The notes beneath the pieces were generated by a model. The model had not been told where the DNA came from and ran no database searches. It saw nothing but the letters and a program-made list of their open reading frames with translations. DNA of 32,000 nt from Thermosulfurimonas dismutans (GTDB lineage Bacteria > Desulfobacterota > Thermodesulfobacteria > Thermodesulfobacteriales > Thermodesulfobacteriaceae). Shown in pieces: positions 1 to 10,514 of this stretch (positions within the stretch are counted from its first letter, which is position 1; every line of letters starts with the position of its first letter). The position numbers and the translations under genes are program-made. The stretch lies in assembly GCF_001652585.1 (NCBI RefSeq), contig NZ_LWLG01000017.1, positions 13,397-45,396 on the forward strand. Reading direction: 5' to 3'.

Positions 1-52
1 ATACTTTAGCTTCATTAATTATTTCATCTTTAAAAATTTCTTCAATTTCCAT
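1..52 (-). CDS. 5' end of a fifth cassette ORF (MEIEEIFKDEIINEAKV...), cut by the window edge
   Basis: The ATG at 52-50 lies 6 nt downstream of an AGGAGG that is fused to the attC core (GTTAGGAGG). Strand and composition match the other cassettes. Confidence 0.4.
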   Translation of the reverse strand, partial: MEIEEIFKDEIINEAKV

Positions 53-60
53 AAAAAACC

Positions 61-121
61 TCCTAACGCCTAAACTCAGCGGCCGGCGATTATCGCCGGT
101 CCGCTGAAGAGGTTTGTTATG
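61..121 (-). repeat. attC recombination site (3' end of the NYN cassette)
   Basis: Plus strand reads tcctaacgcctaaactcagcggccggcgattatcgccggtccgctgaagaggtttgttatga. On the cassette strand it ends in GTTAGGA. The inverse core overlaps the ORF stop codon. The central GGCCGGCGA/TCGCCGGTCC stem has an unpaired base. It is near-identical to the sites at 1826 and 2719. Confidence 0.85.
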
Positions 122-992
122 ATTGCCTTTGTGATTTTTTCATTTCATCTGGAAACAAAATCTCAACTGGCATATCAATATATCCCGAAGCATTCCTTTC
201 CCAACAAAGTTTTATCTGTTTAAATTGATATTCAATATATTTATCATCACTTGCAGCTTTAGGTCCAACATATTCATTATACCTGCCAAACGTTTCCCAT
301 CTAACTTTAATATTTTCTAATTCCATTGCTCCAACTTTTTTAGAAATAAACACAAATCCATCCCAATCAATTCTTAATTGATTTAAAATTCTATCATCTG
401 CTTCAGAAAAAAGTTCTGCACATTTTTCTTTAGTAAAATCATTGATATGAAATTCTGGATAATGATATTTAAATAAATCTCTATAATCTAAAAATATAGT
501 AGCATAAGCTTCATTTCTTAGCTCTATAGGATAATCATTTTTAAGAGATACTAAAAATACTTTCACTTTTCCTCTCAATTTTTTTAAAATAGGAACAAAA
601 TCTCGATCACTAGATAATAAAATTAAAATTTCTACTTCCTTTGCGTAATCCTCTATTTTACTAGAGATAGTTGTATCAACTCCTTTTTCTGAAGAACCAG
701 GAAGATCCACTATATCAACATACACTCCTATTTCAGCTTTAAGTCTTTTTAACAATAATTCTTGCTCTTTTTCAGAAAATCTTTGACTCCTAGGACCGAA
801 TTTTTTTTTAGAACACACAAATTCAACAATTTCTGCCTTTTCCTTTACATCAAAATCAGCAAGTTTTTTATTAATGATTTCTCTTAAACTTTCTAAACTT
901 AATTGTCTAGCAATATGATTTGGTTTAATTCCTAATTCAATAACACGATTAATATAATTAGGTCCATCAACAATAATCGGTATGCCTTGCAT
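117..992 (-). CDS. NYN/LabA-like (PIN-related) predicted ribonuclease with an uncharacterised C-terminal domain; integron cassette product
   Basis: The 291 aa product carries NYN hallmarks: N-terminal IIVDGPNY (Asp/Asn), central GVDTTI, and LLSSDRDFVPILKKLRGKVKVFLV. The C-terminal ~120 aa have no motif I recognise. The stop codon lies inside the attC inverse core. Confidence 0.7.
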   Translation of the reverse strand: MQGIPIIVDGPNYINRVIELGIKPNHIARQLSLESLREIINKKLADFDVKEKAEIVEFVCSKKKFGPRSQRFSEKEQELLLKRLKAEIGVYVDIVDLPGSSEKGVDTTISSKIEDYAKEVEILILLSSDRDFVPILKKLRGKVKVFLVSLKNDYPIELRNEAYATIFLDYRDLFKYHYPEFHINDFTKEKCAELFSEADDRILNQLRIDWDGFVFISKKVGAMELENIKVRWETFGRYNEYVGPKAASDDKYIEYQFKQIKLCWERNASGYIDMPVEILFPDEMKKSQRQS

Positions 993-1008
993 ATTTTTTA
1001 CCTTTACC

Positions 1009-1069
1009 TCCTAACGGCCAAATTCACTCGCCCGCCGTATGGCGGGTCGGGTGAAAAGGTTTGTTAGAT
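1009..1069 (-). repeat. attC recombination site (diverged member of the family)
   Basis: Sequence is tcctaacggccaaattcactcgcccgccgtatggcgggtcgggtgaaaaggtttgttagat. On the cassette strand it runs ATCTAAC ... GTTAGGA. TTCACTCGCCCGCC/GGCGGGTCGGGTGAA form imperfectly paired arms. The stop codon of ORF 1064-1801 sits in the inverse core. Confidence 0.8.
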
Positions 1070-1801
1070 ATTTTTTCTAATATAAAGTATCTCACTATCA
1101 CTAATTCTAGTTTTTATGTCCTCTTCTGAATAATCCAAAAGTTCTACGCATCTGTTGTAATATATTTCATACCATTCACCAAAATATTTATGAAAATCTG
1201 TTACCATTTTATCAAAGGTCAGCTGTTCAAAATTCGGGCAGTCTTCATTACCTATAACTACTTTTGCTCCACCCAACATAATTCCTTGTTGAGTAAAACC
1301 GATAAGGTGCCCACAAAAATATTTAAGGGATGTAACCTGCATTGAACAGTTATCTTCTTTTTTCTTCGGAGAAGCAAAAGCCGTATGAGCGAAAATTTTA
1401 TGTCTATATCTTCTATATTTTTTTATCGCATCTTCTCTCTGTTTTAAGATCTTTTTGTTTACTTCATCGCCAATCTTGTCATGCATATTCTTATATTCTT
1501 TTTTTAAAATATCTGTTAAATTTAAAGCAAAAACAATAAAGGAACCGATACGCCATATTTCTCTTGCTATGAAGGACTCTAATTTAGATTCTTTGACCCC
1601 AATAGCAGGAAATTTTTCTATTAATTTTTTGTTCATCTTAATATCACTTTTATAAGAATTATAAATTTCCAATAATATTCTTAAAATACTATCAATTGAA
1701 GAAAGTATATCTATTGAGGGAATAGTCATTATATAATTTTGAGAATTTCTTCTTAAAGATAGTACTAAATATGGCAAAGAACGAAATGAGTATTCTAACA
1801 T
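1064..1801 (-). CDS. HEPN-like protein (AbiU2-style R-x-K-x-x-A-H motif); integron cassette product
   Basis: The 245 aa, largely helical protein contains YRRYRHKIFAHTA, giving R133-x5-H139 with K at +2 and A at +5. This is the spacing of RNKxxAH-type HEPN RNase motifs. No other family signature was recognised. Confidence 0.5.
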   Translation of the reverse strand: MLEYSFRSLPYLVLSLRRNSQNYIMTIPSIDILSSIDSILRILLEIYNSYKSDIKMNKKLIEKFPAIGVKESKLESFIAREIWRIGSFIVFALNLTDILKKEYKNMHDKIGDEVNKKILKQREDAIKKYRRYRHKIFAHTAFASPKKKEDNCSMQVTSLKYFCGHLIGFTQQGIMLGGAKVVIGNEDCPNFEQLTFDKMVTDFHKYFGEWYEIYYNRCVELLDYSEEDIKTRISDSEILYIRKNI

Positions 1802-1825
1802 TATCCCTTCCTTTTTAGATTTATC

Positions 1826-1886
1826 ATCTAACGCCTAAACTCAGCAGCCGGCGTATACGCCGGTCCGCTGGAGCGAATTGTTAGAT
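1826..1886 (-). repeat. attC recombination site
   Basis: Sequence is atctaacgcctaaactcagcagccggcgtatacgccggtccgctggagcgaattgttagat. On the cassette strand it runs ATCTAAC ... GTTAGAT (a perfect GTTRRRY). Confidence 0.85.
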
Positions 1887-2059
1887 TATTTTCATTTTCC
1901 TGTTCTTTTTCAGAAAAAACGTCCATTATCTTCTTGTTCTCTTCCTTTTAAACCTAAAATCCTGCGAAGCAGTATTCAATTTCTTTTTTATCCTGATTCG
2001 CCCGACTCTTGAAGTGTATTTCTTACCGATTTATGCAATCAATTCTACGGACCGATCTC

Positions 2060-2707
2060 TCAATTTCTCCTTTTTGCAGAGCTGATTATTGAATTAATAT
2101 AATCGTTGATCTCTTTAATTCTTGACCCAAGTATAATATTATAGCCCTTTAGTCTTTTATCCCATACTCTTTTTGCTAAGCGAACAAAATGTAAAAAATC
2201 ATTTTTCATATCTTCTTGAAACTCTTCATCAATTATGACTCCAGAAACAGGACCAGTACCTGTGATCCGTTCTGTAAATGATTCTTTTTTATATGCAGTT
2301 TTCATATCTAAATCGTATCTTACTCCTATACCCAGCTTATCTATCTTCTGGATCCTTTCAAAAGTTTGTTTGGTACATATTCTATATTTGCCATTCGCTC
2401 TTTCTTTGCATTCTGCAATAATTTTACTTAAATTGTGACTGCATTTTCTTGCTACTATATATGCCTCTTTAGCGGTTTCGTCTTTTTTAGATAATCCTAT
2501 CAGTATTGCTTTTAATATGCACTCGAGTGCCATTCTGAGCATAATGAACTGTTTAGTCATAATAGACATGTTGTGAACAGGGAAACTTTGACTGTGATGA
2601 TATAGAGCAATCCAATCAGCTGCATCTCTGAAGAAATGGCCAAATAAAACAGCTTTTACATGTGACTCTAAGGAAAACCGTTTGCCAATCTTTTTTAATG
2701 TAGTCAT
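2060..2707 (-). CDS. Helical protein with a weak classical-HEPN-like signature; integron cassette product
   Basis: The 215 aa product contains LRMALECILKAILIGL...ARKCSHNLSKII, which resembles the a-x-e-x-aLKAlL ... tHdL-x-x-L pattern of HEPN domains. The spacing is R-x3-H, which is not canonical. The ORF stops 173 nt before its attC. Confidence 0.35.
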   Translation of the reverse strand: MTTLKKIGKRFSLESHVKAVLFGHFFRDAADWIALYHHSQSFPVHNMSIMTKQFIMLRMALECILKAILIGLSKKDETAKEAYIVARKCSHNLSKIIAECKERANGKYRICTKQTFERIQKIDKLGIGVRYDLDMKTAYKKESFTERITGTGPVSGVIIDEEFQEDMKNDFLHFVRLAKRVWDKRLKGYNIILGSRIKEINDYINSIISSAKRRN

Positions 2708-2718
2708 TTATTTATCGT

Positions 2719-2777
2719 GTCTAACGCCAAACTCAGCGGCGCCATGTAATGGCGTCCGCTGAAGAGATTTGTTAGGT
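2719..2777 (-). repeat. attC recombination site
   Basis: Sequence is gtctaacgccaaactcagcggcgccatgtaatggcgtccgctgaagagatttgttaggt. On the cassette strand it runs ACCTAAC ... GTTAGAC. The CTTCAGC arm against GCTGAG leaves an extra T, the kind of extrahelical base expected in attC. The TAA stop of ORF 2772-3614 lies in the inverse core. Confidence 0.85.
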
Positions 2778-3614
2778 CTTTTCATTAATAATCCTATTTG
2801 CAAAATAATTATCAAAAAAGTTTAAAAAGTCTCGAAGTCCCAAAATAATAGAATTAAGTAGTTTCTCTACCTCAAATCTGTCTTGAATTATTGTAACTAA
2901 GTAATGGTCTCCTCGTTCATAAAAAGAAATATCAATAGAACCAACATGAGTAACATAATCTCTTATATCGCGAACAATAAAAAACCATTCCATGTGATTT
3001 TTTATGTATTGTTTCATAGTATCATCTGAAATTTCTCCCGATCTATGTTTATCTTTGCAAATATATTTTATATAATCAGAAAAACTACAGAATTGACGAG
3101 AACTAGGACCATACAAGAAATGGAGCATAGTAGCAATTGAATCCATAATACTTCTTACATTAAATAAAAGACCAGCGATCTCTGATTTTAATGCATAAAC
3201 TTGGTCACCTATATTAAATGAAGGCTGTCCTGTTCTTGGAAGTATTTTCCGAGTTTTTTGGTAATAAACTTGGATGTCTTTAATTATTTTTTGTATCCTT
3301 TCAATATTCAAAGTTAAAGAATAAAGCTTATCAGCTATGTATTTAAAGTTAAATACATAATATTGTCCTGCTAAAAAATATTGTCGAATATATCCATTTT
3401 TAGTTTCTATATAATATCCTATATGATGAAATCTTTCCCAATATCTAGTCTTTAAAATAGCTTTTCTAAGTTGTGGAAAAGGATCTTTTAAAGCAGGTAT
3501 TGTATAACTAACTAGTTTACCCCGGGAGGGAGATAAGCTTACTCTGTAAGTATTCCTTAATCTTTCTTGTATTTTCTCTTGCGCTTGTTTAGTTTTTATA
3601 ATTTCAAAACGCAT
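2772..3614 (-). CDS. Hypothetical protein with a C-terminal HEPN-type R-x4-H motif; first (attI-proximal) cassette
   Basis: The 280 aa product contains FFIVRDIRDYVTHVGS (R218-x4-H223) in a helical C-terminal region. It lies immediately downstream of the attI core and the candidate Pc promoter. Confidence 0.4.
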   Translation of the reverse strand: MRFEIIKTKQAQEKIQERLRNTYRVSLSPSRGKLVSYTIPALKDPFPQLRKAILKTRYWERFHHIGYYIETKNGYIRQYFLAGQYYVFNFKYIADKLYSLTLNIERIQKIIKDIQVYYQKTRKILPRTGQPSFNIGDQVYALKSEIAGLLFNVRSIMDSIATMLHFLYGPSSRQFCSFSDYIKYICKDKHRSGEISDDTMKQYIKNHMEWFFIVRDIRDYVTHVGSIDISFYERGDHYLVTIIQDRFEVEKLLNSIILGLRDFLNFFDNYFANRIINEKT

Positions 3615-3679
3615 TTTTATTTATCTAACATTACTTTTATACTTTCTTAGATTTAAAGCCTATTGCCAATATTTTTGGA

Positions 3680-3709
3680 ATGATAGCTTTTTACAATAAA
3701 AAATGTCAA
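3680..3709 (-). promoter_or_regulatory. Candidate cassette promoter Pc
   Basis: The minus strand reads TTGACA (3709-3704), an 18 nt spacer, then TATCAT (3685-3680). It points into the cassette array about 65 nt upstream of the first cassette ATG. Confidence 0.45.
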
Positions 3710-3826
3710 ACATTAAGATTAAATCTTATTACGAATCTCTTGAGATAATAGAGGATAAAAATGTTTATTTTTATTTTTATGTCTTAAAATTTCTTAAAAT
3801 CTAACTTTCTGGATAATACACAAAAT

Positions 3827-3855
3827 TTGCCTAATTTTGCAAAGTAAAATAAGAT
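3827..3855 (+). promoter_or_regulatory. Candidate intI promoter
   Basis: TTGCCT, a 17 nt spacer, then TAAGAT, about 40 nt upstream of the ATG at 3895. Both hexamers are weak. Confidence 0.25.
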
Positions 3856-3894
3856 GGCTTGCAGATAATATCTTTGCTGGCAAAAAGGATCAAA

Positions 3895-4962
3895 ATGGAA
3901 TCGCAAGAAAAGTTGATGGAAAAATTTGGGGCCTTTCTCAAGAAGGTGGAAAAGCGAGAAAGGGTGGTCCCCTTCATGGTGCGGTGGGTGGTGCAGGCCC
4001 TGCAGGAATATGAACTGCCCCCCGGACAAAAGTTAGCCCCCGCTCAGAAAAAACAATTTCTCTTTAAATTATCCCAAAAATACGAGCCTTGGCAAGTAGA
4101 ACAGGCTGATCGGGCCTTAAAGCTATATGAGTATTTCCTGAACACCTTATCCCAAAAATCTCCGACAGAGAGGACAGAGGCCGAATGGGCGGAGGCCTTG
4201 GAGAAGGCCAGAGAGGTCCTCAGGCGCAAACGGTACTCCTACCGCACCGAAAAATCTTACCTTGACTGGATAAGATGCCTGGCCGAATATCTGGACTACA
4301 AATCACCGGAAGAAGTTTCCGGCGAGGATTTTCAGGATTTTCTCACCCATCTTGCCGTGGAAAGAAACGTAGCCCCTTCCACCCAGAATCAGGCTTTAAA
4401 TGCCCTGGTGTTCTTTTATCGCCATGTGCTCGAAAAAGAAATTGATCCCTATATTGAGGCCGTAAAGGCCCGGGAGAGAAGAAGGCTTCCGGTGGTGCTA
4501 AGCCGGGAAGAGGTGGAGGCCGTGCTCTCGGTCTCGGAACTTGAGGAAACCTATTATCTAATCTGTGCCCTCATGTATGGAGGGGGCTTGAGAGTAAGTG
4601 AGACGGTAAGACTCCGGGTAAAAGATCTGGATTTTGAACGAGGCTTGATCACGGTATTTTCCGGCAAGGGAGACAAAGACCGGGTAACCGTAGATCCGCG
4701 GACTGAGACCGTGCGTCGGCATCACATCCATCCCAGTGCGGTGCAACGGGCCTTCAAGAAGGCGCTACGGAAGGCCAGAGTGGAAAAACCCGCTACGGTG
4801 CATTCCCTGCGGCACAGCTTCGCTACCCACCTCCTTGAGGACGGCTACGATATTCGTACCATTCAGGAACTTCTGGGGCACAAGAGTCTGAGCACCACTA
4901 TGATTTACACTCATATCGTGGGACGGCGGGTCACCGGGGTGGTGAGTCCGCTTGACCGCTAA
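3895..4962 (+). CDS. intI: Integron integrase IntI (tyrosine recombinase) with an N-terminal extension and an apparent in-frame loss of the IntI-specific additional domain
   Basis: IntI-type motifs are present: YSYRTEKSYLDWIRC, APSTQNQALNALVFFY, LRVSETVRLRVKDLDFERG, VRRHHIHPSAVQRAFKKA, HSLRHSFATHLLEDGYDIRTIQELLGH and TMIYTH. The ATG at 3895 (AAAGGA RBS) is preferred over the TTG at 3859. GKGDKDRVT is followed directly by VDPRTETVRRHH, whereas IntI1 has about 60 residues between these two blocks. Confidence 0.8.
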   Translation: MESQEKLMEKFGAFLKKVEKRERVVPFMVRWVVQALQEYELPPGQKLAPAQKKQFLFKLSQKYEPWQVEQADRALKLYEYFLNTLSQKSPTERTEAEWAEALEKAREVLRRKRYSYRTEKSYLDWIRCLAEYLDYKSPEEVSGEDFQDFLTHLAVERNVAPSTQNQALNALVFFYRHVLEKEIDPYIEAVKARERRRLPVVLSREEVEAVLSVSELEETYYLICALMYGGGLRVSETVRLRVKDLDFERGLITVFSGKGDKDRVTVDPRTETVRRHHIHPSAVQRAFKKALRKARVEKPATVHSLRHSFATHLLEDGYDIRTIQELLGHKSLSTTMIYTHIVGRRVTGVVSPLDR

Positions 4963-4978
4963 TTTAAAGGAGAAAAGT

Positions 4979-5305
4979 ATGCGTATACTAGCCACGATTC
5001 TGATGGTGATCGGGTATCTTTTAATAGGGGCCCATTTTCTGCGGGCTGGGCATTCGTTGGTGGCCCTGGGGCTTGCCTTTGCGCCGGCTCTTCTCTTTCT
5101 CAAACACCGGATGGTGCGCCTGATCCTTTCCGCAGGCCTGGGGCTGGCCCTTATTGAATGGGGCCGGACTTTCGTTTTCCTGAAACGGATCTATGAGGCT
5201 CACGGCCTTCCTTTCAGCAAGTCTGGTTTCATCCTGGGAGGAGTAATGGCCGTTACCTTTCTGGCCGTAGCCCTCAACCTGCGGGAGGATCTGCGGAACA
5301 AATGA
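4979..5305 (+). CDS. Small integral membrane protein (3-4 predicted TM helices), function unknown
   Basis: The ATG at 4979 follows an AAAGGAG RBS. The sequence is hydrophobic (ILATILMVIGYLLIGA..., LVALGLAFAPALLFL..., GFILGGVMAVTFLAVAL). Its stop overlaps the ATG of the downstream ABC remnant (ATGA). Confidence 0.5.
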   Translation: MRILATILMVIGYLLIGAHFLRAGHSLVALGLAFAPALLFLKHRMVRLILSAGLGLALIEWGRTFVFLKRIYEAHGLPFSKSGFILGGVMAVTFLAVALNLREDLRNK

Positions 5306-5576
5306 TCCGGGTCCGCCATCTGCACTATCGTTACCCGGAAGGAACTCGGGAGGCCCTTTCCGGGATCTCGCTTACGGTAAATCCGGGAGAGGTGCTGCTT
5401 CTTTCCGTCCTCTGCTGACTTATTCCTTCACAGGCCGGAGGTGAGTTTTCCGGAGAGGTGAAGGTTCTGGGGCGAAAGGCTCCCTTTTCTCCCGCGGAGG
5501 TCTTTCCCGAGGTGGCCTTCGGGCTTGAAAACCTGGGGTATCCGGAAAGGGAACTCGAAAATAAACTAAGCATCAA
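5302..5576 (+). pseudogene. Degraded ABC-transporter ATPase (EcfA/CbiO-like) remnant
   Basis: MIRVRHLHYRYPEGTREALSGISLTVNPGEVLLL matches an ABC ATPase N-terminus, but the frame stops before a Walker A motif. A second frame continues with GEVKVLGRKA...EVAFGLENLGYPERELE. The Walker A and Q-loop regions, and everything after about residue 100, are missing. Confidence 0.6.
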
Positions 5577-5899
5577 CCCAAGCTATCGCCAACAAAAGTG
5601 GCGGATAGTCGTCTACTCCCAACTTTAAGCTCAAATGCAAACGCAGGGACATGAACTATAAGGGAGTAAAGAGCATCCTTTAGTAAACGCGAATCGGCCT
5701 CTACAGAAAGAAAAACGCCTAGAGGTAAGGAAAGAGACGAATTGGCAGCAGAAGAAACAAAACCTGTAAGACGGGTCTTGAAACCATCTGCTATTTCCAC
5801 TAATTCAAACTCGGGCATACGAACCTTTCCTACTACCTGCTTAGTATCCTTGTCTATTATATCAATAACCATATAAAAGGCCTCAAAGGATTCAAGCAC
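5573..5899 (-). CDS. Hypothetical protein (orphan ORF, no motif recognised)
   Basis: This 108 aa ORF abuts the truncation point of the ABC pseudogene. It has no convincing RBS and no recognisable family signature. Confidence 0.25.
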   Translation of the reverse strand: MLESFEAFYMVIDIIDKDTKQVVGKVRMPEFELVEIADGFKTRLTGFVSSAANSSLSLPLGVFLSVEADSRLLKDALYSLIVHVPAFAFELKVGSRRLSATFVGDSLG

Positions 5900-6091
5900 T
5901 GGCTCTACCGAAGGCTTCCTTTTTTCCAGGTGGTTTATCCAGAAAGCTTGGCAAAGGAAATAGAAGAGGATCTTTCTTTTTTCCTAAGTAAGCTAAAGAA
6001 AGATGATCTCCAATGATTTAATTGCCTATATCAAACAAATCCTTTCGGACACCTAAATTAAGGCGGAGGACTGAAACCCTTGATCCTCAAG

Positions 6092-6164
6092 TGGGCCGGG
6101 CAGGATTCGAACCTGCGACTCCTGGCTTAAAAGGCCAGTACTCTGCCAGCTGAGTTACCGGCCC
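6092..6164 (-). tRNA. tRNA-Lys: tRNA-Lys (anticodon UUU)
   Basis: The minus strand folds as a 73 nt cloverleaf: GGGCCGG TA ACTC AGCTGGCA GAGT A CTGGC CTTTTAA GCCAG GAGTC GCAGG TTCGAAT CCTGC CCGGCCC A. The anticodon loop is CU-UUU-AA. CCA is not encoded. Confidence 0.9.
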
Positions 6165-6215
6165 GGTTATGGGCTTAAATTACCCTTGAACTCCAGGGCT
6201 GTCAAGAATTATTAA

Positions 6216-7165
6216 GAGGGTGTTCGAAAAAACTAGATATTGACGTTGGGGGAGCCTAGAATTAACTCCCCCAACATGAGAAGAAGCAAACTGCGTCTCA
6301 AGACCATCTTCAAAATAACCCGAGCCATAATAAATGAAAAGCCCCTGGCCTTTCGAGGTCGCCCAAAAACTTATTCCGATGCCTTCATTATCTCTATCTT
6401 CCTCTACCAAACCCTAAAAAATCTATCCTACCGAGAAGCACTAGAAGAGGCCTTCGATATATTGGGACGAAGACCCGCCCTTTCTACCTACCACTACCGA
6501 GTCTCAAAATTCCCTAAACAATCCCTGAAAATCCTTCTCCAAGAATTGGCCCGAAAACTTCTAGCAAAAGAACATCACCTCTTTTCCTTTATCTCTGATG
6601 GCACCGGCTTTAGTTATCATGACCTCTACCCTTTAAAATTCTTAAGAGGCTCAGAAATCAGAAAAGTAAAAGCCCATATAAGAGTGGTCCCCATAATCGG
6701 AGTAACTTCATCCGGAAAAAGAATCGTCATTACCGCTGAAACCGGAGGTCCCTATGCCAGCGAGGTAAAACTTCTCCTGGAAGCTCTGGCAGAAATTGAT
6801 CCAGTCACTTTTAAAGCCGAATGTTTTATAGCAGATAAATGCTATGACAGTCTCAAGGTCATGGAAAAACTTGTAGAGCTTGGATTAAAACCGGCCATAA
6901 AAGTAAAAGAAACCTTCAGGCAGAAGGTAAAACATCCTCTGCGGAAAGATTCCAGAATTTTCTGGGAGAAATGGGGCCGAAATAGATATCTGATTGAAAG
7001 TTTGTTTGGTACGGTAAAACTGAAAATAGGCTCGCATTTTAGGGTAAGAAAGGAAGAAATAGCCCAGAAGAGAGGACTGGCCGCTTTTGTGCTCTATAAT
7101 ATGTACCTCCTGGCTACCCTCCTCTATATCTCGTTGCTCCTTAAAAACTATTTTCGAACACTCTC
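6216..7165 (+). mobile_element. Insertion sequence (IS4/IS5 superfamily, DDE transposase) with terminal inverted repeats and an 11 bp target-site duplication
   Basis: IRL is GAGGGTGTTCGAAAA (6216-6230). IRR is the reverse complement of TTTTCGAACACTCTC (7151-7165), matching 14/15. The direct repeat AGAATTATTAA lies at 6205-6215 and 7166-7176, immediately outside the IRs. Confidence 0.8.
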
Positions 7166-7196
7166 AGAATTATTAAAAGCCTTTTCATCCCAATAA
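6276..7196 (+). CDS. DDE transposase (PF01609-like, IS4/IS5 superfamily)
   Basis: The DDE triad candidates are SDGTGFSY, FIADKCYDS and NRYLIESLFGTVK, the last fitting the R-x3-E-x6-K signature. The ATG at 6276 is preferred over the TTG at 6240. The reading frame runs through IRR and stops in flanking DNA. Confidence 0.75.
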   Translation: MRRSKLRLKTIFKITRAIINEKPLAFRGRPKTYSDAFIISIFLYQTLKNLSYREALEEAFDILGRRPALSTYHYRVSKFPKQSLKILLQELARKLLAKEHHLFSFISDGTGFSYHDLYPLKFLRGSEIRKVKAHIRVVPIIGVTSSGKRIVITAETGGPYASEVKLLLEALAEIDPVTFKAECFIADKCYDSLKVMEKLVELGLKPAIKVKETFRQKVKHPLRKDSRIFWEKWGRNRYLIESLFGTVKLKIGSHFRVRKEEIAQKRGLAAFVLYNMYLLATLLYISLLLKNYFRTLSELLKAFSSQ

Positions 7197-7291: not shown

Positions 7292-9220
7292 ATGCCGAAA
7301 AGTTTTTCATGGTTTCTTCTGGTAGTCAGTATCTGGCTAGCTATGTCCTCCGGAGCCTTGGCCGGTGAAAAGTCCACGGAGGAGAGCACCTGGGGTCTCG
7401 GGGAGGTAGTAATAACAGCCACCAAAACCCCGCACCCCCTGAAAGATGTCCCAGTAGAGACGGTGGTAATAACCAAGGAGGAAATTGAACGTTCCAGCGC
7501 TCAGACCGTAAGTGACCTCTTGCGTTACGTTCCCGGGATATTTGTCAGGGACGAAGATGCCCCCGGCATTTCGAGTTGGCGGGCAACTATAAGGGGCCTG
7601 AGCTTCAACGATGGCTACGGACTCATCCTGATTGATGGAGAACGGGTAAGAGGCGAGGGCATGGGGGATTCCGGGATAGGACTTAACCAGATACCGCCTC
7701 AGATGATCGAAAAGATAGAGGTGGTCAAGGGCCCAAGTTCGGTCCTCTACGGAAGCGACGCCCTTGCGGGTGTAGTAAACATCATCACCAAACCTACTCC
7801 CGACAGAACCATCTATGGTTTCGAGGGAGGTTACGGGAGTTACTGGACGAACATGGAGTATCTCTACTGGGGAACGAAGGCCGCCCCTTGGGGCGTGCTC
7901 TTTCAGGCCTCCCGTGAGGAATCAGAGATGGGACAGTACGGTGTAAGGACCTATCGAGACGAAACTTATAAAAGAGAAAGTTTCTTATCTAACTTCTCTT
8001 ATGAGGTAAATCCAAATCTCGTCCTAGGACTCAAGTTTACGGCCCAGGAAGAGGAACGGAAGATCGAATACCTGACCCAGGACACCGTAGTAAACAGAAA
8101 GGGCTACAAATATCGCATCGCCCCTCACCTCAAAATGATCTTCGATGACGATTCGGAATTGATTGTGAAGGGATATTACTATGACTGGAAATTCGATGCA
8201 GACTCCTACGGCACGGATCCGTATCCCTACGCCCTCTATAAAGGAGATATGTACTATCGAGACCTTGAGGTCCGCTATACCAAACCCGTAAAAACGAGTC
8301 ATCTGGTTACCCTGGGTGCCGAGTATCGGCAAGAGGAATTGGATTACACCTTCTCACAAAGAAAACTTGATATCACTAGTGCCTACTTCCAGGATGAAAT
8401 CGAATTCCATATGGGGTTTCCCATGGAGGTGGTGGCAGGTGCCCGTCTGGATCATCATTCCCGGTATGGCACGGAGTTTTGTCCCAAAGTAAGTCTCCTG
8501 GTGAAACTGGATGAGGCTACCAGAGTAAGGGCTTCCGTAGGAAGAGGCTTCAAATCTCCCACCATCAGACAGGCCTTCTATACCGAACCCTATCCCCACG
8601 GAGATTATTTCTATGTTTCAAACCCGGACCTTGAGGCCGAAACCTCTTGGGGTTATTCCGTGGGAATTGAACGAAATATCGGCGATATCTTCTGGGGGAA
8701 TATCACTTTTTTCAGGAACGACATCGAAGATATGATTATAAGATATTACGACTATAAAGACATCAATAACGACGGCGTTGTCGAAAAAATAAGAACTTTT
8801 AGGAATGCTAAGGAAGCCTACACGCAGGGTATAGAAGTAGCCCTGAAGTTAGCCTTAATTAAAGATGTCTTATGGTTTAATATAGCTTATACCTATTTAG
8901 ATACGGAAGACGAAGATACCGGTAAAGAACTCACCTTTATCCCTGACCATAATCTGGCAGGCCATATAGTTTTCAAGCATAAACCTCTGGGAATATCCTT
9001 TGATATCGGTATCCAATATGTCAGTGAAATGTATACCAATCCTACTAATACTGAGCAAACCAGCAGTTATTCCGTTGTGGATGTGAAACTCGTCAAGACA
9101 ATCGGCAAGCACGCCTCCTTGTCCGTGGAAGGCAATAACATTTTTGACTCTGATTATGGTGAACCAGATCGTGAATGGTGGGGAGCCACTTGGCTGGCCC
9201 GCTTTAAGATGGATTTCTAA
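7292..9220 (+). CDS. TonB-dependent outer-membrane receptor
   Basis: The ATG follows an AAGGAGG RBS. A signal peptide (SFSWFLLVVSIWLAMSSGALA) is followed by a plug domain (EVVITATKTPHPLKDVPVETVVITKEEIERSSAQTVSDLLRYVPGI, IDGERV, VKGPSSVLYGSDALAGVVNIITK). The beta-barrel ends in a terminal ...RFKMDF. Confidence 0.9.
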   Translation: MPKSFSWFLLVVSIWLAMSSGALAGEKSTEESTWGLGEVVITATKTPHPLKDVPVETVVITKEEIERSSAQTVSDLLRYVPGIFVRDEDAPGISSWRATIRGLSFNDGYGLILIDGERVRGEGMGDSGIGLNQIPPQMIEKIEVVKGPSSVLYGSDALAGVVNIITKPTPDRTIYGFEGGYGSYWTNMEYLYWGTKAAPWGVLFQASREESEMGQYGVRTYRDETYKRESFLSNFSYEVNPNLVLGLKFTAQEEERKIEYLTQDTVVNRKGYKYRIAPHLKMIFDDDSELIVKGYYYDWKFDADSYGTDPYPYALYKGDMYYRDLEVRYTKPVKTSHLVTLGAEYRQEELDYTFSQRKLDITSAYFQDEIEFHMGFPMEVVAGARLDHHSRYGTEFCPKVSLLVKLDEATRVRASVGRGFKSPTIRQAFYTEPYPHGDYFYVSNPDLEAETSWGYSVGIERNIGDIFWGNITFFRNDIEDMIIRYYDYKDINNDGVVEKIRTFRNAKEAYTQGIEVALKLALIKDVLWFNIAYTYLDTEDEDTGKELTFIPDHNLAGHIVFKHKPLGISFDIGIQYVSEMYTNPTNTEQTSSYSVVDVKLVKTIGKHASLSVEGNNIFDSDYGEPDREWWGATWLARFKMDF

Positions 9221-9246
9221 ATCCTAATCGGTAAAGGAGGAAAAAC

Positions 9247-9717
9247 ATGAAAAAATTATTAATAGTACCCTTTAGTTTTATGTGTCTTTTAGTTTTCAGT
9301 AGTTTAGTCAAAGCTCACGATCTTTGGCTCCAAGCCCAAAATTATTATCTCGATTCTATGGAAAACATTGAAATAAAAGTTGTGTTTGGTCATAACTTTC
9401 CTTATGAAGATATTTTAATACCAAAAAAAGATATAAGTGAATTTTCATATGTAACTCCTGAAGGAGTTAAAAAATCGGTTACAAATATTTGGGAAAGCAT
9501 AAAGGGTAACAGGAAAAGAGAATACAAAAAAGGAAGTTTGATAGGAGAGATTGATTTATCTAAATGCACAAAATGCAAAGAGGGGACTTATATTATTGCT
9601 GCTTCTAGAGTTAGAAAAGGAGACAAGTTTCATGTACCTTCAGGAAAATATGGTAAAGCTATAATTATAGTAGGCCAAAAAGGTACGCAAAAAATAACTA
9701 AAGGGGGTGTCTTATGA
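9247..9717 (+). CDS. Secreted DUF4198/CbiK(COG5266)-like protein, short form (N-terminal half only)
   Basis: A signal peptide ends ...SLVKA|HDLWLQ. The VFGHNFP and GTYIIAA motifs resemble the neighbouring full-length paralog. It is 156 aa and low in GC. The family assignment comes from memory of the AH-x-W-L N-terminus typical of these Ni/Co-associated periplasmic proteins. Confidence 0.45.
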   Translation: MKKLLIVPFSFMCLLVFSSLVKAHDLWLQAQNYYLDSMENIEIKVVFGHNFPYEDILIPKKDISEFSYVTPEGVKKSVTNIWESIKGNRKREYKKGSLIGEIDLSKCTKCKEGTYIIAASRVRKGDKFHVPSGKYGKAIIIVGQKGTQKITKGGVL

Positions 9718-10514
9718 AGATAAAGAAAAAATTTGTGATTGGTATTTTGACAAGTCTTTTTCTTCTGCTGGCCTTTATTCCTAAAACCTATGCTCACTTT
9801 CTGTGGTTAAACGTTGATGATTATACCCCTAAAAAAGGACAAGAGGTCCGCATCACCCTCGGTTGGGGACACAAGTTCCCCGAAACACCAACCCCTCCTA
9901 GAGAGGAGATGGTAAAGAAACTCTCCCTCTTTTTGATAGATCCTGATGGTCAAAAAATTCCTCTTAATATTCCCGTAAAAGACGGAAAACCACAGCCCGT
10001 TAGAGTAAAGGTAACCAAAAACGGCATTTATTTAGCCGTAGCTATCGCCAAACACTTTGTTTCCAAAACCACGGAAGGTTATTTCTATAAATCCAGAGAC
10101 GAGTTAAAAGACAAAGAAATTATTTATTCCAAGTGGTCTGAAACTACTGCGATCGCTATTATAAGTGTGGGTAAATCTAAAAAATTTGATACTCCTAACA
10201 ATCTAGACTCTAGCTTTTACATCCTTCCTCTGGTTAATCCCTCGGTTTTAAAAGAGGGAGAAACCTTTCAGGTAAAGGCAATATTTTACGGTAAACCCTA
10301 TCGCACCTGGGTGTATGCTACTTATGCGGGATTCAGTAAATTTAAAGATACCTATGCTTGGGCAACCAAAACAGACAAGAGGGGCATAGCTAATATTAAA
10401 ATTTTGAAGAGTGGGGTAAACTGGTTGCTTAAAAGCGAGGTTGAGAAACACTATCCAGATCCAAAGAAAGCCGATATAGCAAGTTACAAATGTTCCGTAA
10501 CATTTGGATTCTAG
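9714..10514 (+). CDS. Secreted DUF4198/CbiK(COG5266)-like periplasmic protein (putative Ni/Co uptake component)
   Basis: The start overlaps the upstream stop (ATGA). A signal peptide ends ...PKTYA|HFLWLN, followed by LGWGHKFPE. It is 266 aa, and the C-terminal half is beta-rich. Confidence 0.5.
   Translation: MKIKKKFVIGILTSLFLLLAFIPKTYAHFLWLNVDDYTPKKGQEVRITLGWGHKFPETPTPPREEMVKKLSLFLIDPDGQKIPLNIPVKDGKPQPVRVKVTKNGIYLAVAIAKHFVSKTTEGYFYKSRDELKDKEIIYSKWSETTAIAIISVGKSKKFDTPNNLDSSFYILPLVNPSVLKEGETFQVKAIFYGKPYRTWVYATYAGFSKFKDTYAWATKTDKRGIANIKILKSGVNWLLKSEVEKHYPDPKKADIASYKCSVTFGF

What the first reader, a model, noticed from the sequence alone, without database searches (positions are those of the whole stretch)
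1..3860. Cassette array of a sedentary-type integron with one homogeneous attC family
Four ~60 bp imperfect palindromes lie at 61-121, 1009-1069, 1826-1886 and 2719-2777. They share the frame CTAACGCC-AAACTCAGC...TCCGCTGAAGAG-TTTGTTAG. On the cassette (minus) strand each starts with an RYYYAAC-like inverse core containing the TAA stop of the preceding ORF, and each ends in GTTAGRN. The arms pair imperfectly; for example CTTCAGC against GCTGAG leaves an extra T, as expected for the extrahelical bases of folded attC. Each interval of 817-948 bp holds one ORF in the same orientation. A GTTAGAT lies 8 nt upstream of the first cassette ATG, next to a divergent intI. The cassettes are far more AT-rich than the attC sites and the rest of the window. 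High attC similarity is the hallmark of chromosomal (sedentary) integrons, and the array continues beyond position 1.
Basis: partly seen in the sequence, partly recalled or inferred. Interest (0 to 1): 0.75.

Follow-up and report, generated by a model that had tools for sequence, protein, structure and literature searches.

The report
Integron cassette array, crippled integrase
The left end of this Thermosulfurimonas dismutans contig is a genuine integron gene-cassette array with textbook attC recombination sites. The integrase gene beside it has lost the 61-residue segment that defines integron integrases, so it is an ordinary, probably frozen, member of a well-known kind of element.

Summary
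Four co-oriented ~61-nt imperfect palindromes lie at 60-122, 1008-1069, 1825-1886 and 2718-2777, and each follows one minus-strand ORF. They have attC anatomy on the + (bottom) strand: a CTAAC/GTTAG R box, an unpaired spacer, an L box, and two extrahelical bases on the same arm spaced T-N6-A/G. Their stems change by compensatory substitutions. A covariance model built from them finds nothing else in the other 29 kb of the window. It does find co-oriented arrays in a sister species, beside intI genes of other phyla, and in dozens of metagenome contigs.

Comparison with a close relative shows homology starting exactly at GTTAG (3625-3629). That marks a used attI crossover.

Two corrections. First, the divergent intI (3895-4962) is an in-frame 183-bp deletion derivative. 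It lacks the IntI-specific domain that every close homologue keeps, so it is probably inactive. Second, "sedentary" cannot be established. Only 4-5 cassettes are visible, the flanks are not syntenic with the sister species, and the attC family is shared with a wide environmental cassette pool rather than private to this array.

The cassettes are 28-33% GC against about 52% for the host. They encode NYN-like and HEPN-like proteins. Verdict: a new member of a known kind, of modest interest.

The parts
1..66 (-). Start of a fifth cassette (E). It has TTAGGAGG (an SD within and after the R' core) and an ATG at 52->50, and its ORF runs off the window.
   Evidence: frame 0 translation FFMEIEEIFKDEIINEAKV
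60..122 (+). attC of cassette D, with the bottom strand on +. R' is CTAAC and R'' is GTTAT(G). [quoted passage not shown]
   Evidence: R1 72.6 bits on + against 14 bits on -; fold -19 kcal/mol, z -5.8
67..1014 (-). Cassette D (948 nt). ORF 117-992 encodes 291 aa with a NYN (LabA-like nuclease) domain. Its TAA stop lies inside the R'' box.
   Evidence: Pfam PF01936 E 4.5e-08, 34.2 bits, cut-off 24.2; weak PADLOC NYN match
1008..1069 (+). attC of cassette C. It is the most divergent copy, and its stem is rebuilt by compensatory changes.
   Evidence: R1 65.4 bits
1015..1831 (-). Cassette C (817 nt). ORF 1064-1801 encodes 245 aa of a family with an invariant R-N-K-x-F-A-H motif. It is weakly AbiU2-like HEPN.
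   Evidence: 87 representatives at E<=1e-3; invariant R133/K135/H139; 4 of 29 members hit PF18734, best E 4.8e-06. The query itself is only E 0.05.
1825..1886 (+). attC of cassette B, with the canonical T-N6-G extrahelical pattern.
   Evidence: R1 76.5 bits
1832..2724 (-). Cassette B (893 nt). ORF 2060-2707 encodes 215 aa of unknown function. A 173-nt non-coding tail (1887-2059) precedes the attC.
   Evidence: No Pfam, NCBIfam, PADLOC or PHROG hit; homologues are 211-212 aa, so the ORF is not truncated
2718..2777 (+). attC of cassette A.
   Evidence: R1 67.5 bits
2725..3628 (-). Cassette A, the first after attI (904 nt). ORF 2772-3614 encodes 280 aa of a Cthe_2314-like HEPN family.
   Evidence: 80 homologues; 6 of 26 members hit PF18730, best E 3.2e-06; the UniRef name for the identical protein is 'Cthe-2314-like HEPN'
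3623..3664 (-). attI. The crossover core is GTTAGAT (3629->3623). The conserved TAACATTACTTTTATACTTTCTTAGAT block lies on the intI side.
   Evidence: Homology with metagenome contig L206 (intact intI, 93% aa identity) and with F29 starts exactly at CTAAC. The first cassettes are unrelated.
3680..3709 (-). Candidate Pc promoter reading into the cassettes: TTGACA, 18 nt, TATCAT (11 of 12 matches).
   Evidence: TTGACA is conserved in S012_5. This is a consensus match only and is not tested.
3895..4962 (+). intI deletion derivative, 355 aa. All six catalytic residues are kept. A 183-bp in-frame deletion sits at the retained CCGT (4688-4691). The N-terminal ~105-aa extension typical of this clade is intact.
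   Evidence: TIGR02249 310.7 bits, cut-off 265, in two stretches; VchIntIA residues 168-227 have no counterpart; 61 columns are missing against 9 and 77 homologues; DNA junction; an HMM of the missing segment scores -0.3 bits in the window against 101 bits in F29

Best explanation
This is the platform and the promoter-proximal end of a chromosomal integron of Thermosulfurimonas dismutans.

Layout. On the minus strand, a candidate Pc promoter and an attI site (crossover in GTTAG at 3625-3629) are followed by at least five promoterless cassettes. Each visible cassette has one ORF with its own ribosome-binding site and one attC.

attC sites. As single strands, the + (bottom) strands of the attC sites fold into the canonical hairpin. 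It has a 5-bp R box, a 6-7-nt unpaired spacer, an L box, and two extrahelical bases on the 3' arm spaced T-N6-A/G. These are the features an integron integrase reads.

Past activity. Cassettes were inserted at attI by IntI-catalysed attI x attC recombination. This is inferred from the canonical mechanism and from the comparative breakpoint.

Present state. The divergent intI has since lost 183 bp between two CCGT repeats. The loss removes the IntI-specific domain, which contacts the second extrahelical base, together with an adjacent core helix. The resident enzyme is therefore most likely inactive. The array is now a fixed operon-like set of AT-rich genes (NYN-like and HEPN-like, so possibly nuclease, toxin or defence functions). 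It could be mobilised only by an integrase supplied in trans.
For: attC identity:
- Four co-oriented sites occur only in the array. R1 scores 65-77 bits on + and 13-17 bits on -. Nothing scores better than E=1 in the other 29 kb.
- The folds have z-scores of -2.9 to -5.8, with an invariant bulged T.
- Six of 17 pairs show compensatory changes among 8 sites.
- Among 116 related sites, 93.3% of cells are paired. Covariation is 0.299, against 0.108 for shuffles and 0.03-0.06 for slid controls.
- The T-N6-R spacing matches the canonical T-N6-G reported in PMC3053210.

Association with integrons:
- R1 finds untrained sites in the F29 array next to an intact intI.
- It finds sites beside intI genes in other phyla.
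- It finds co-oriented arrays with 430-1300-nt spacing in metagenome contigs.

attI: homology with L206 and F29 begins exactly at CTAAC, and the first cassettes are unrelated.

intI:
- It belongs to the IntI lineage (TIGR02249 310.7 bits against a cut-off of 265; best PDB match VchIntIA 2A3V).
- It lacks the counterpart of VchIntIA 168-227, which includes K209, Y210 and W219, the contacts of the extrahelical G20''.
- All close homologues of 407-415 aa keep this segment.
- The junction shows 4-bp microhomology.
- The segment is absent from all six frames of the window.
- In the AF2 model of full-length P0003, the lost residues 257-317 include helix 260-283, the ALERKYP helix and a beta-strand.
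- The IntI additional domain is described as required for activity (PMC3053210, background).
Against: - IntegronFinder's own attC covariance model was not available. Rfam has no attC family, so one search is uninformative. R1 is home-made and partly circular for the sites it was built from.
- Inactivity of the deleted IntI is inferred, not measured. The ORF is intact and all catalytic residues are kept.
- The deletion cannot be checked against reads.
- Another intI elsewhere in the genome cannot be excluded, because the genome itself was not retrievable.
- Pc is only a consensus match.
- The cassette functions rest on weak or indirect domain matches.
Confidence: 0.8

Rival explanations
1. The integron is complete and active. 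The 355-aa IntI still recombines these attC sites despite the missing segment.
For: The ORF is uninterrupted. The catalytic R, K, H, R, H and Y residues are kept, as are the P/HH residues that contact the extrahelical T. TIGR02249 still scores above its cut-off.
Against: The protein lacks about 60 residues that every one of 77 homologues keeps. These include the IntI-specific domain described as required for activity and the G20'' contacts K209, Y210 and W219. About 30 residues shared with XerA are also gone. The AF2 model places a 24-residue core helix in the lost part.
Confidence: 0.06
2. The 183-bp deletion is an assembly or sequencing artefact, and the real genome carries an intact integron.
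For: This is a draft 454/Newbler assembly of 61 contigs (PMC4911364). The reads were not available here.
Against: The deletion is exactly 61 codons and in frame. It is bounded by a CCGT microhomology typical of a biological slippage deletion. Mean read length was 635 nt, which would span the region. The same gene carries a second small lineage-specific change, a 2-aa insertion at a tandem TCTCGG.
Confidence: 0.07
3. The repeats are REP-like or other structured intergenic repeats unrelated to integron recombination.
For: They are GC-rich palindromes in intergenic positions, and no curated attC model could be run.
Against: They are confined to the array in 32 kb and are strictly co-oriented with one ORF per unit. 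They carry RYYYAAC/GTTRRRY cores and T-N6-R bulges. They recur next to intI genes in F29 and in other phyla. The attI breakpoint falls at GTTAG.
Confidence: 0.02
4. The element is a recently acquired or mobile integron rather than a long-resident sedentary one.
For: There is no synteny of flanks or cassettes with the F29 integron. Cassettes and the attI-intI spacer are 24-33% GC in a 50-52% GC genome. An IS and tRNA-Lys lie 1.1-2.2 kb from intI. The attC family is shared with many metagenome arrays.
Against: intI itself has host-like GC of 52%. Its closest relatives are in the same genus or family. No transposition or plasmid genes flank the platform. The rest of the window is chromosomal metal-uptake and cobalamin genes.
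Confidence: 0.3

Closest known systems
Sedentary chromosomal integron of Vibrio cholerae (VchIntIA with VCR attC sites)
   Same: It has a divergent intI, an attI, and co-oriented one-ORF cassettes. The attC sites belong to one sequence family and fold on the bottom strand. The two extrahelical bases are on the same arm, with T first. The TAA stop is often inside the R'' box (TAACAAAC...). The best solved-structure match of the integrase is 2A3V.
   Different: The attC sites here are ~61 nt rather than ~120 nt. The second extrahelical base is usually A. Pairwise attC identity is 68-79%. Only 4-5 cassettes are visible. The integrase belongs to the ~410-aa N-terminally extended clade and carries a 61-aa internal deletion. 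The cassettes are about 20 GC points below the host.
Integrons with decayed intI ('pseudo-integrons', e.g. Xanthomonas; about one third of genomic intI genes in Nemergut et al. 2008, PMC2426708)
   Same: A chromosomal array is retained next to an intI predicted to be non-functional through a major deletion. The decay is lineage-specific, since close relatives keep the intact gene.
   Different: The lesion here is in frame and leaves an intact ORF with all catalytic residues. Annotation pipelines therefore call it a normal recombinase or 'integron integrase'.
CALIN (cluster of attC sites lacking an integron integrase; Cury et al. 2016, PMC4889954)
   Same: There are at least two attC sites, and no protein nearby carries the IntI-specific region.
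   Different: A recognisable intI remnant, attI and probable Pc are still attached, so this is a complete platform caught just after integrase decay. Only 15 of 279 CALIN had an intI pseudogene nearby.
Thermosulfurimonas sp. F29 integron (L081) and metagenome contig Ga0256840 (L206)
   Same: They share the IntI clade (82-93% aa identity), the attI block, the attC family and the AT-rich cassettes.
   Different: Their intI genes are intact (416/381 aa and 414 aa). Their cassette contents and flanks are entirely different. The F29 array is interrupted by two transposase genes.

Membership tests
attC recombination site | Inverse core R'' (RYYYAAC) and core R' (GTTRRRY) at the two ends, in cassette orientation | tested here: met
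   R'' is ATCTAAC, ATCTAAC, ACCTAAC and tcATAAC (three of four perfect). R' is GTTAGAT, GTTAGAC and GTTAGGA twice (two of four perfect; the last position is A in two)..
attC recombination site | Imperfect palindrome whose bottom strand folds with R box, unpaired spacer, L box and variable terminal stem-loop; structure is conserved more than sequence | tested here: met
   Folds. There are 6 compensatory pairs among 8 sites. On 116 sites, 93.3% of cells are paired and covariation exceeds all 500 shuffles and all slid controls (that alignment was fitted to the model).
attC recombination site | Two extrahelical bases on the same arm of the bottom strand, canonical spacing T-N6-G | tested here: met
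   A bulged T is invariant. Six nt later the bulged base is G in attC 1825-1886 and A in the other three. The canonical pattern is from PMC3053210. A in place of G is a variant.
attC recombination site | Scored by IntegronFinder's attC covariance model | not testable with these tools
   That model is not available here, and Rfam 15 has no attC family. As a surrogate, the home-made model R1 also detects untrained sites beside intI genes of other phyla.
Complete integron (IntegronFinder definition) | Integron integrase matching both PF00589 and the IntI-specific region (intI_Cterm) | tested here: not met
   PF00589 is met. The IntI-specific 61-residue segment is absent. An HMM of that segment gives -0.3 bits over all six frames of the window against 101 bits in F29. 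The original intI_Cterm profile itself was not run.
Complete integron (IntegronFinder definition) | At least one attC site within a few kb of intI | tested here: met
   The nearest attC (2718-2777) is 1.1 kb from the intI start.
Integron platform | attI site adjacent to intI at which cassettes are inserted (crossover in GTTRRRY) | tested here: met
   Sequence shared with L206 and F29 runs from intI to CTAAC (3625-3629) and stops there. The cassettes beyond it are unrelated. Recombination itself was not assayed.
Integron platform | Pc promoter directing transcription into the array | tested here: inconclusive
   An 11-of-12 sigma-70-like match on the minus strand at 3709-3680. This is a consensus scan only.
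Integron integrase (IntI) lineage | Sequence membership: TIGR02249 above cut-off and IntI as closest relatives | tested here: met
   310.7 bits against a cut-off of 265. The top homologues are annotated integron integrases. 2A3V is the best PDB match.
Sedentary chromosomal integron (Cury et al. 2016) | More than 19 attC sites, or presence in at least 60% of the genomes of the species | not testable with these tools
   Only 4 attC sites and a fifth cassette start are in the window. The source contig and other strains were not retrievable. The criteria are from PMC4889954.
Sedentary chromosomal integron | attC sites more similar within the array than to other arrays | tested here: not met
   Mean identity is 74% within the window, 77% between window and metagenome sites, and 65% between window and F29. 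The metagenome set was chosen with a window-derived motif, which inflates its similarity.
REP-like dispersed repeats | Copies scattered through the genome outside arrays, in either orientation | tested here: not met
   There are none in the remaining 29 kb. The whole genome is not testable here.

The most novel reading that the evidence does not exclude
The ~410-aa integron integrases form a distinct integron lineage. Their extra N-terminal domain appears to be a second, degenerate copy of the core-binding (SAM-like) domain. Their cognate ~60-nt T-N6-A attC family accompanies them. This lineage would serve a widely shared environmental pool of AT-rich nuclease-type (HEPN, NYN) cassettes that moves between GC-richer hosts, including vent thermophiles. 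T. dismutans would show that platform caught just after being frozen by loss of the IntI-specific domain.
Probability: 0.25. Interest if true: 0.5.

Novelty: new member of a known kind. Interest (0 to 1): 0.3.

Why it matters
The result adds a documented integron to a thermophilic vent bacterium of the Thermodesulfobacteria. Neither published genome paper for this genus mentions integrons or integrases.

It also carries a practical warning. An intI that looks intact to gene callers and is named 'integron integrase' in UniRef can lack the very domain that defines the family. Counting such loci as active integrons overestimates recombination potential.

The locus gives a clean natural pair for testing what the IntI-specific domain contributes: the deleted T. 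dismutans gene against the 93%-identical intact metagenome gene and the F29 gene, all sharing attI and attC types.

The strong GC contrast between cassettes and hosts, repeated in several arrays, bears on the open question of where integron cassettes come from.

Tried and rejected
- Rfam scan for an attC family: none exists, and only tRNA-Lys was found.
- Retrieving the source contig to extend the array leftward: the exact protein is not on record, and the genome was not among the genome-contig hits.
- Synteny or cassette sharing with 81 related intI loci: none beyond intI, attI and attC.
- Testing whether homologues of cassette A sit in arrays of the same attC type: R1 found nothing in L082, L083 or L085. 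Those loci look like arrays of small defence-type genes but were not resolved.
- PADLOC and PHROGs on the cassette proteins: essentially nothing.
- Looking for a replication origin to orient the bottom strands relative to replication: the GC-skew minimum near 28 kb coincides with a change of gene orientation, and no dnaA is present. This remains not testable.
- Hairpin stability at growth temperature: folding with DNA parameters is sensible up to 60 C, where the central hairpin is -8 to -13 kcal/mol. It gives meaningless structures at 74-90 C, so it was not used.
- Frameshift explanation for the 173-nt tail of cassette B: rejected, because the ORF is full length relative to its homologues.
- Pfam on the ORF fragments at 5304-5628, which look to me like remnants of an ABC ATPase N-terminus: no support.


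Full report
SOURCE AND SETTING. The integrase ORF at 3895-4962 is 100% identical to a 355-aa protein of Thermosulfurimonas dismutans on a 45,396-bp contig. T. dismutans is a deep-sea-vent thermophile whose draft genome has 61 contigs from 454 reads of about 635 nt and is 50.1% G+C (PMC4911364). The rest of the window (about 7-32 kb) carries ordinary chromosomal genes. These include TonB-dependent receptors, CobN and Mg-chelatase subunits, a FecCD-type ABC importer, ExbB/TonB, cytochromes and FeoAB. Between intI and these genes lie a small membrane-protein ORF, a degenerate stretch, tRNA-Lys (6091-6164) and an IS with 24-nt inverted repeats (6207-7174).

THE OBSERVATION. The four palindromes are real and non-random. 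The 3' half-motif occurs four times against 0.01 expected. All copies are in one orientation, with start-to-start spacings of 948, 817 and 893 nt. Each interval contains one long minus-strand ORF. Three of the four ORFs end in the TAA of the ...TAAC inverse core. The fourth (2060-2707) stops 173 nt earlier and is full length compared with its homologues, so the tail is simply non-coding. GC is 28-33% in the cassettes, 53-56% in the sites and 52% in intI and the rest of the window. Left of the last site, GGAGG and an ATG (52->50) open a fifth ORF that runs off the window.

ARE THEY attC SITES? With the cassette ORFs on the minus strand, the + strand is the bottom strand. Folded as DNA, each + strand gives the same hairpin:
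- a 4-5-bp R box, CTAAC/GTTAG;
- a 6-7-nt unpaired spacer on each side;
- a 7-bp helix, TCAGCGG/CCGCTGA;
- a single bulged T;
- a 6-7-bp GC-rich terminal stem with a 3-4-nt loop.

The free energies are -13.7 to -19 kcal/mol, with z-scores of -2.9 to -5.8.

The bulged T is invariant. Exactly six nucleotides 3' of it, the motif GCTG-R-AG leaves one purine unpaired against CT-CAGC. That purine is A in three sites and G in the site at 1825-1886. Two extrahelical bases on the same arm with spacing T-N6-G is the canonical attC bottom-strand signature (PMC3053210). The cores are RYYYAAC in three of four sites and GTTRRRY in two of four (GTTAGGA in the other two). The stems differ between copies by compensatory changes: 6 of 17 pairs among eight Thermosulfurimonas sites.

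Rfam has no attC family, and IntegronFinder's model was not available. I therefore built a covariance model (R1) from the four window sites plus four sites found next to the intact intI of Thermosulfurimonas sp. F29. With filters off, R1 scores the four sites at 65-77 bits on the + strand and only 13-17 bits on the minus strand. Nothing else in the other 29 kb does better than E=1.

R1 also generalises:
- It finds three further untrained sites in the F29 array.
- It finds 31 sites beside integron-integrase genes of unrelated phyla, including runs of 5-7 co-oriented sites in two of those loci, L028 and L080.
- After a metagenome scan with TCCGCTGAAGNGNNTTGTTA (at least 120 contigs), it finds 116 sites in 80 loci. 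Many form co-oriented arrays with 430-1300-nt spacing.

On those 116 sites, 93.3% of pair cells are standard pairs. The covariation score is 0.299, against 0.108 for shuffles (0 of 500 reach it) and 0.03-0.06 for slid controls. That alignment is fitted to the model, so the figures lean towards it.

attI. The intergenic region next to intI is shared with F29, with MAG S012_5 and, at about 85% identity, with metagenome contig Ga0256840 (L206). The L206 intI is intact and 93% identical in protein. In each comparison, similarity runs from intI down to TAAC (CTAAC in T. dismutans and L206, ATAAC in F29) and ends there. In T. dismutans and L206 the cassette strand reads ...GTAATGTTAG and then diverges (AT... 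against CT...). The adjacent ORFs are unrelated. That is the footprint expected of different cassettes inserted at the same attI by recombination in G/TTRRRY. A strong sigma-70-like match (TTGACA, 18 nt, TATCAT; 3709->3680, minus strand) is a plausible Pc, but it is untested.

THE INTEGRASE IS NOT INTACT. The protein belongs to the IntI lineage. TIGR02249 scores 310.7 bits against a cut-off of 265, and the best PDB relative is VchIntIA 2A3V. However, every match comes in two pieces. Query residues up to ...GKGDKDRVT align to VchIntIA 6-167, and the next residues, VDPRTETVRRHH..., align to 228-319. VchIntIA 168-227 has no counterpart.

All close homologues are 407-415 aa and carry 61 extra residues at this point: VFPRKL...[29 protein letters not shown]. 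This segment holds the IntI signature. At the DNA level, S012_5 and F29 have 183 bp between two CCGT tetranucleotides, and T. dismutans has a single CCGT at 4688-4691. That is a classic microhomology deletion.

An HMM of the 61-residue segment built from 77 homologues scores 101 bits in the F29 locus and -0.3 bits across all six frames of the window. The lost part includes the counterparts of K209, Y210 and W219, which contact the extrahelical G20''. P232, H240 and H241 (contacts of T12''), K160 and the catalytic R-K-H-R-H-Y residues are kept. It also includes about 30 residues that XerA shares. In the AF2 model of full-length P0003 (mean pLDDT 83), the lost residues 257-317 comprise a 24-residue helix, the ALERKYP helix and most of a beta-strand.

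The IntI additional domain is reported to be required for activity (PMC3053210). I therefore infer that the resident integrase is inactive. This is an inference, not a measurement.

Decayed intI genes are common; nearly one third of genomic intI genes were decayed in PMC2426708. This one is unusual only in being in frame and therefore invisible to gene callers. Under IntegronFinder's rule (PF00589 plus intI_Cterm, PMC4889954), the locus would probably be reported as CALIN with an adjacent recombinase.

'SEDENTARY' AND 'HOMOGENEOUS'. The four sites are 68-79% identical and clearly form one family. They are no closer to one another (74%) than to sites on metagenome contigs (77%; that set was selected with a window-derived motif), and they are 65% identical to F29 sites. 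The conserved parts are the R', spacer, L' and first-helix segments, and the terminal stem-loop is free to vary. The family is therefore a property of a shared cassette pool or integrase clade, not of this array.

Flanks and cassettes show no similarity to the F29 integron or to 80 other intI loci. The published operational criteria for sedentary integrons (more than 19 attC sites, or presence in most genomes of the species) cannot be evaluated. The chromosomal context and the host-like GC of intI favour residence. The lack of synteny, the nearby IS and tRNA, and the foreign composition of the cassettes leave a more recent acquisition open.

CASSETTE CONTENT.
- Cassette D encodes a NYN-domain protein (PF01936, E 4.5e-08).
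- Cassette A belongs to a family of about 280-aa proteins. Six of 26 members reach PF18730, Cthe_2314-like HEPN.
- Cassette C belongs to a family with an invariant R-N-K-x-F-A-H motif. Four of 29 members reach PF18734, AbiU2 HEPN.
- Cassette B has only four relatives and no domain match.

These are nuclease, toxin or defence-type folds by family annotation only. No function was tested, and PADLOC gave only a marginal NYN match for cassette D (E 0.015).

VERDICT. This is a real integron platform and cassette array with canonical attC sites and a demonstrably used attI. It is attached to an integrase that has lost its family-specific domain. It is a new member of a known kind and of modest interest. 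The 'sedentary' label and the implied functional intI were not.

Noticed in passing
window 3895-4209 (IntI residues 1-105); alignments A12/A13; model of P0003: The ~105-aa N-terminal extension shared by all ~410-aa IntI homologues looks like a degenerate second copy of the SAM-like core-binding domain (PF13495). hhalign of the extension against the SAM region gives probability 83.6% and E 8.2e-06, with the motifs Y-x-x-W-V and Q-x-Q-A-x-x-A-L-x-L-Y aligned. AF2 models it as five confident helices. Nemergut et al. 2008 noted a clade of IntI about 120 aa longer and called it a gene fusion. Its role is unknown.
   Followed up: partly
window 1-3622; L081 208-9324; L088, L103, L107, L115, L121, L157: Cassettes carrying this attC family are consistently very AT-rich (25-34% GC), while their attC sites are 46-60% GC. 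Where the host flank is known (T. dismutans, F29), it is about 52% GC. Two other metagenome arrays of the family (L093, L162) have GC-rich cassettes (48-55%). This suggests cassette genesis in, or exchange with, low-GC organisms. It is unexplained.
   Followed up: partly
window 4526-4537: A tandem TCTCGG TCTCGG in intI coincides with a two-residue insertion (VS) absent from all aligned homologues. This is a second slippage-type lesion in the same gene.
   Followed up: no
window 1887-2059: Cassette B has a 173-nt non-coding tail between its stop codon and its attC, with slightly higher GC than the other cassettes. The ORF is full length. No function was looked for, such as a promoter, sRNA or remnant of a second gene.
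   Followed up: no
window 5304-5900: There are broken reading frames just right of intI. The peptide MIRVRHLHYRYPEGTREALSGISLTVNPGEV... and a later ...EVAFGLENLG... fragment look to me like remains of an ABC-transporter ATPase with its Walker A region missing. Pfam gives no support at this length. The neighbourhood seems to be decaying.
   Followed up: partly
window 6091-7196: tRNA-Lys(UUU) on the minus strand is followed immediately by an IS of about 970 bp. The IS has 24-nt inverted repeats (6207-6230 and 7151-7174) and a DDE_Tnp_1 transposase ORF.
   Followed up: partly
L152 (metagenome contig Ga0256914_1029330) 788-1777 and 2559-2622: This is another platform with a top-scoring attC of the same family (67 bits) in the same divergent layout. 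Its intI is split over three frames and truncated after about residue 272, next to an unrelated gene. It is an independent example of intI decay in this clade.
   Followed up: partly
L081 (Thermosulfurimonas sp. F29) 2522-5311 and 4196-4259: The F29 array is interrupted by two transposase genes (DDE_Tnp_1, DDE_3). One attC-like site (41.6 bits) between them lies in the opposite orientation to all the others. This suggests an IS-mediated inversion inside the array.
   Followed up: no
L091, L143, L014, L028, L080: In several related loci the attC sites lie downstream of intI, with cassettes co-directional with it. This 'inverted intI' layout is unlike the divergent layout in the window.
   Followed up: no
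window 9000-10500: A second low-GC stretch (36-38%) covers two DUF4198 genes downstream of a TonB-dependent receptor. It is unrelated to the integron and was not examined further.
   Followed up: no
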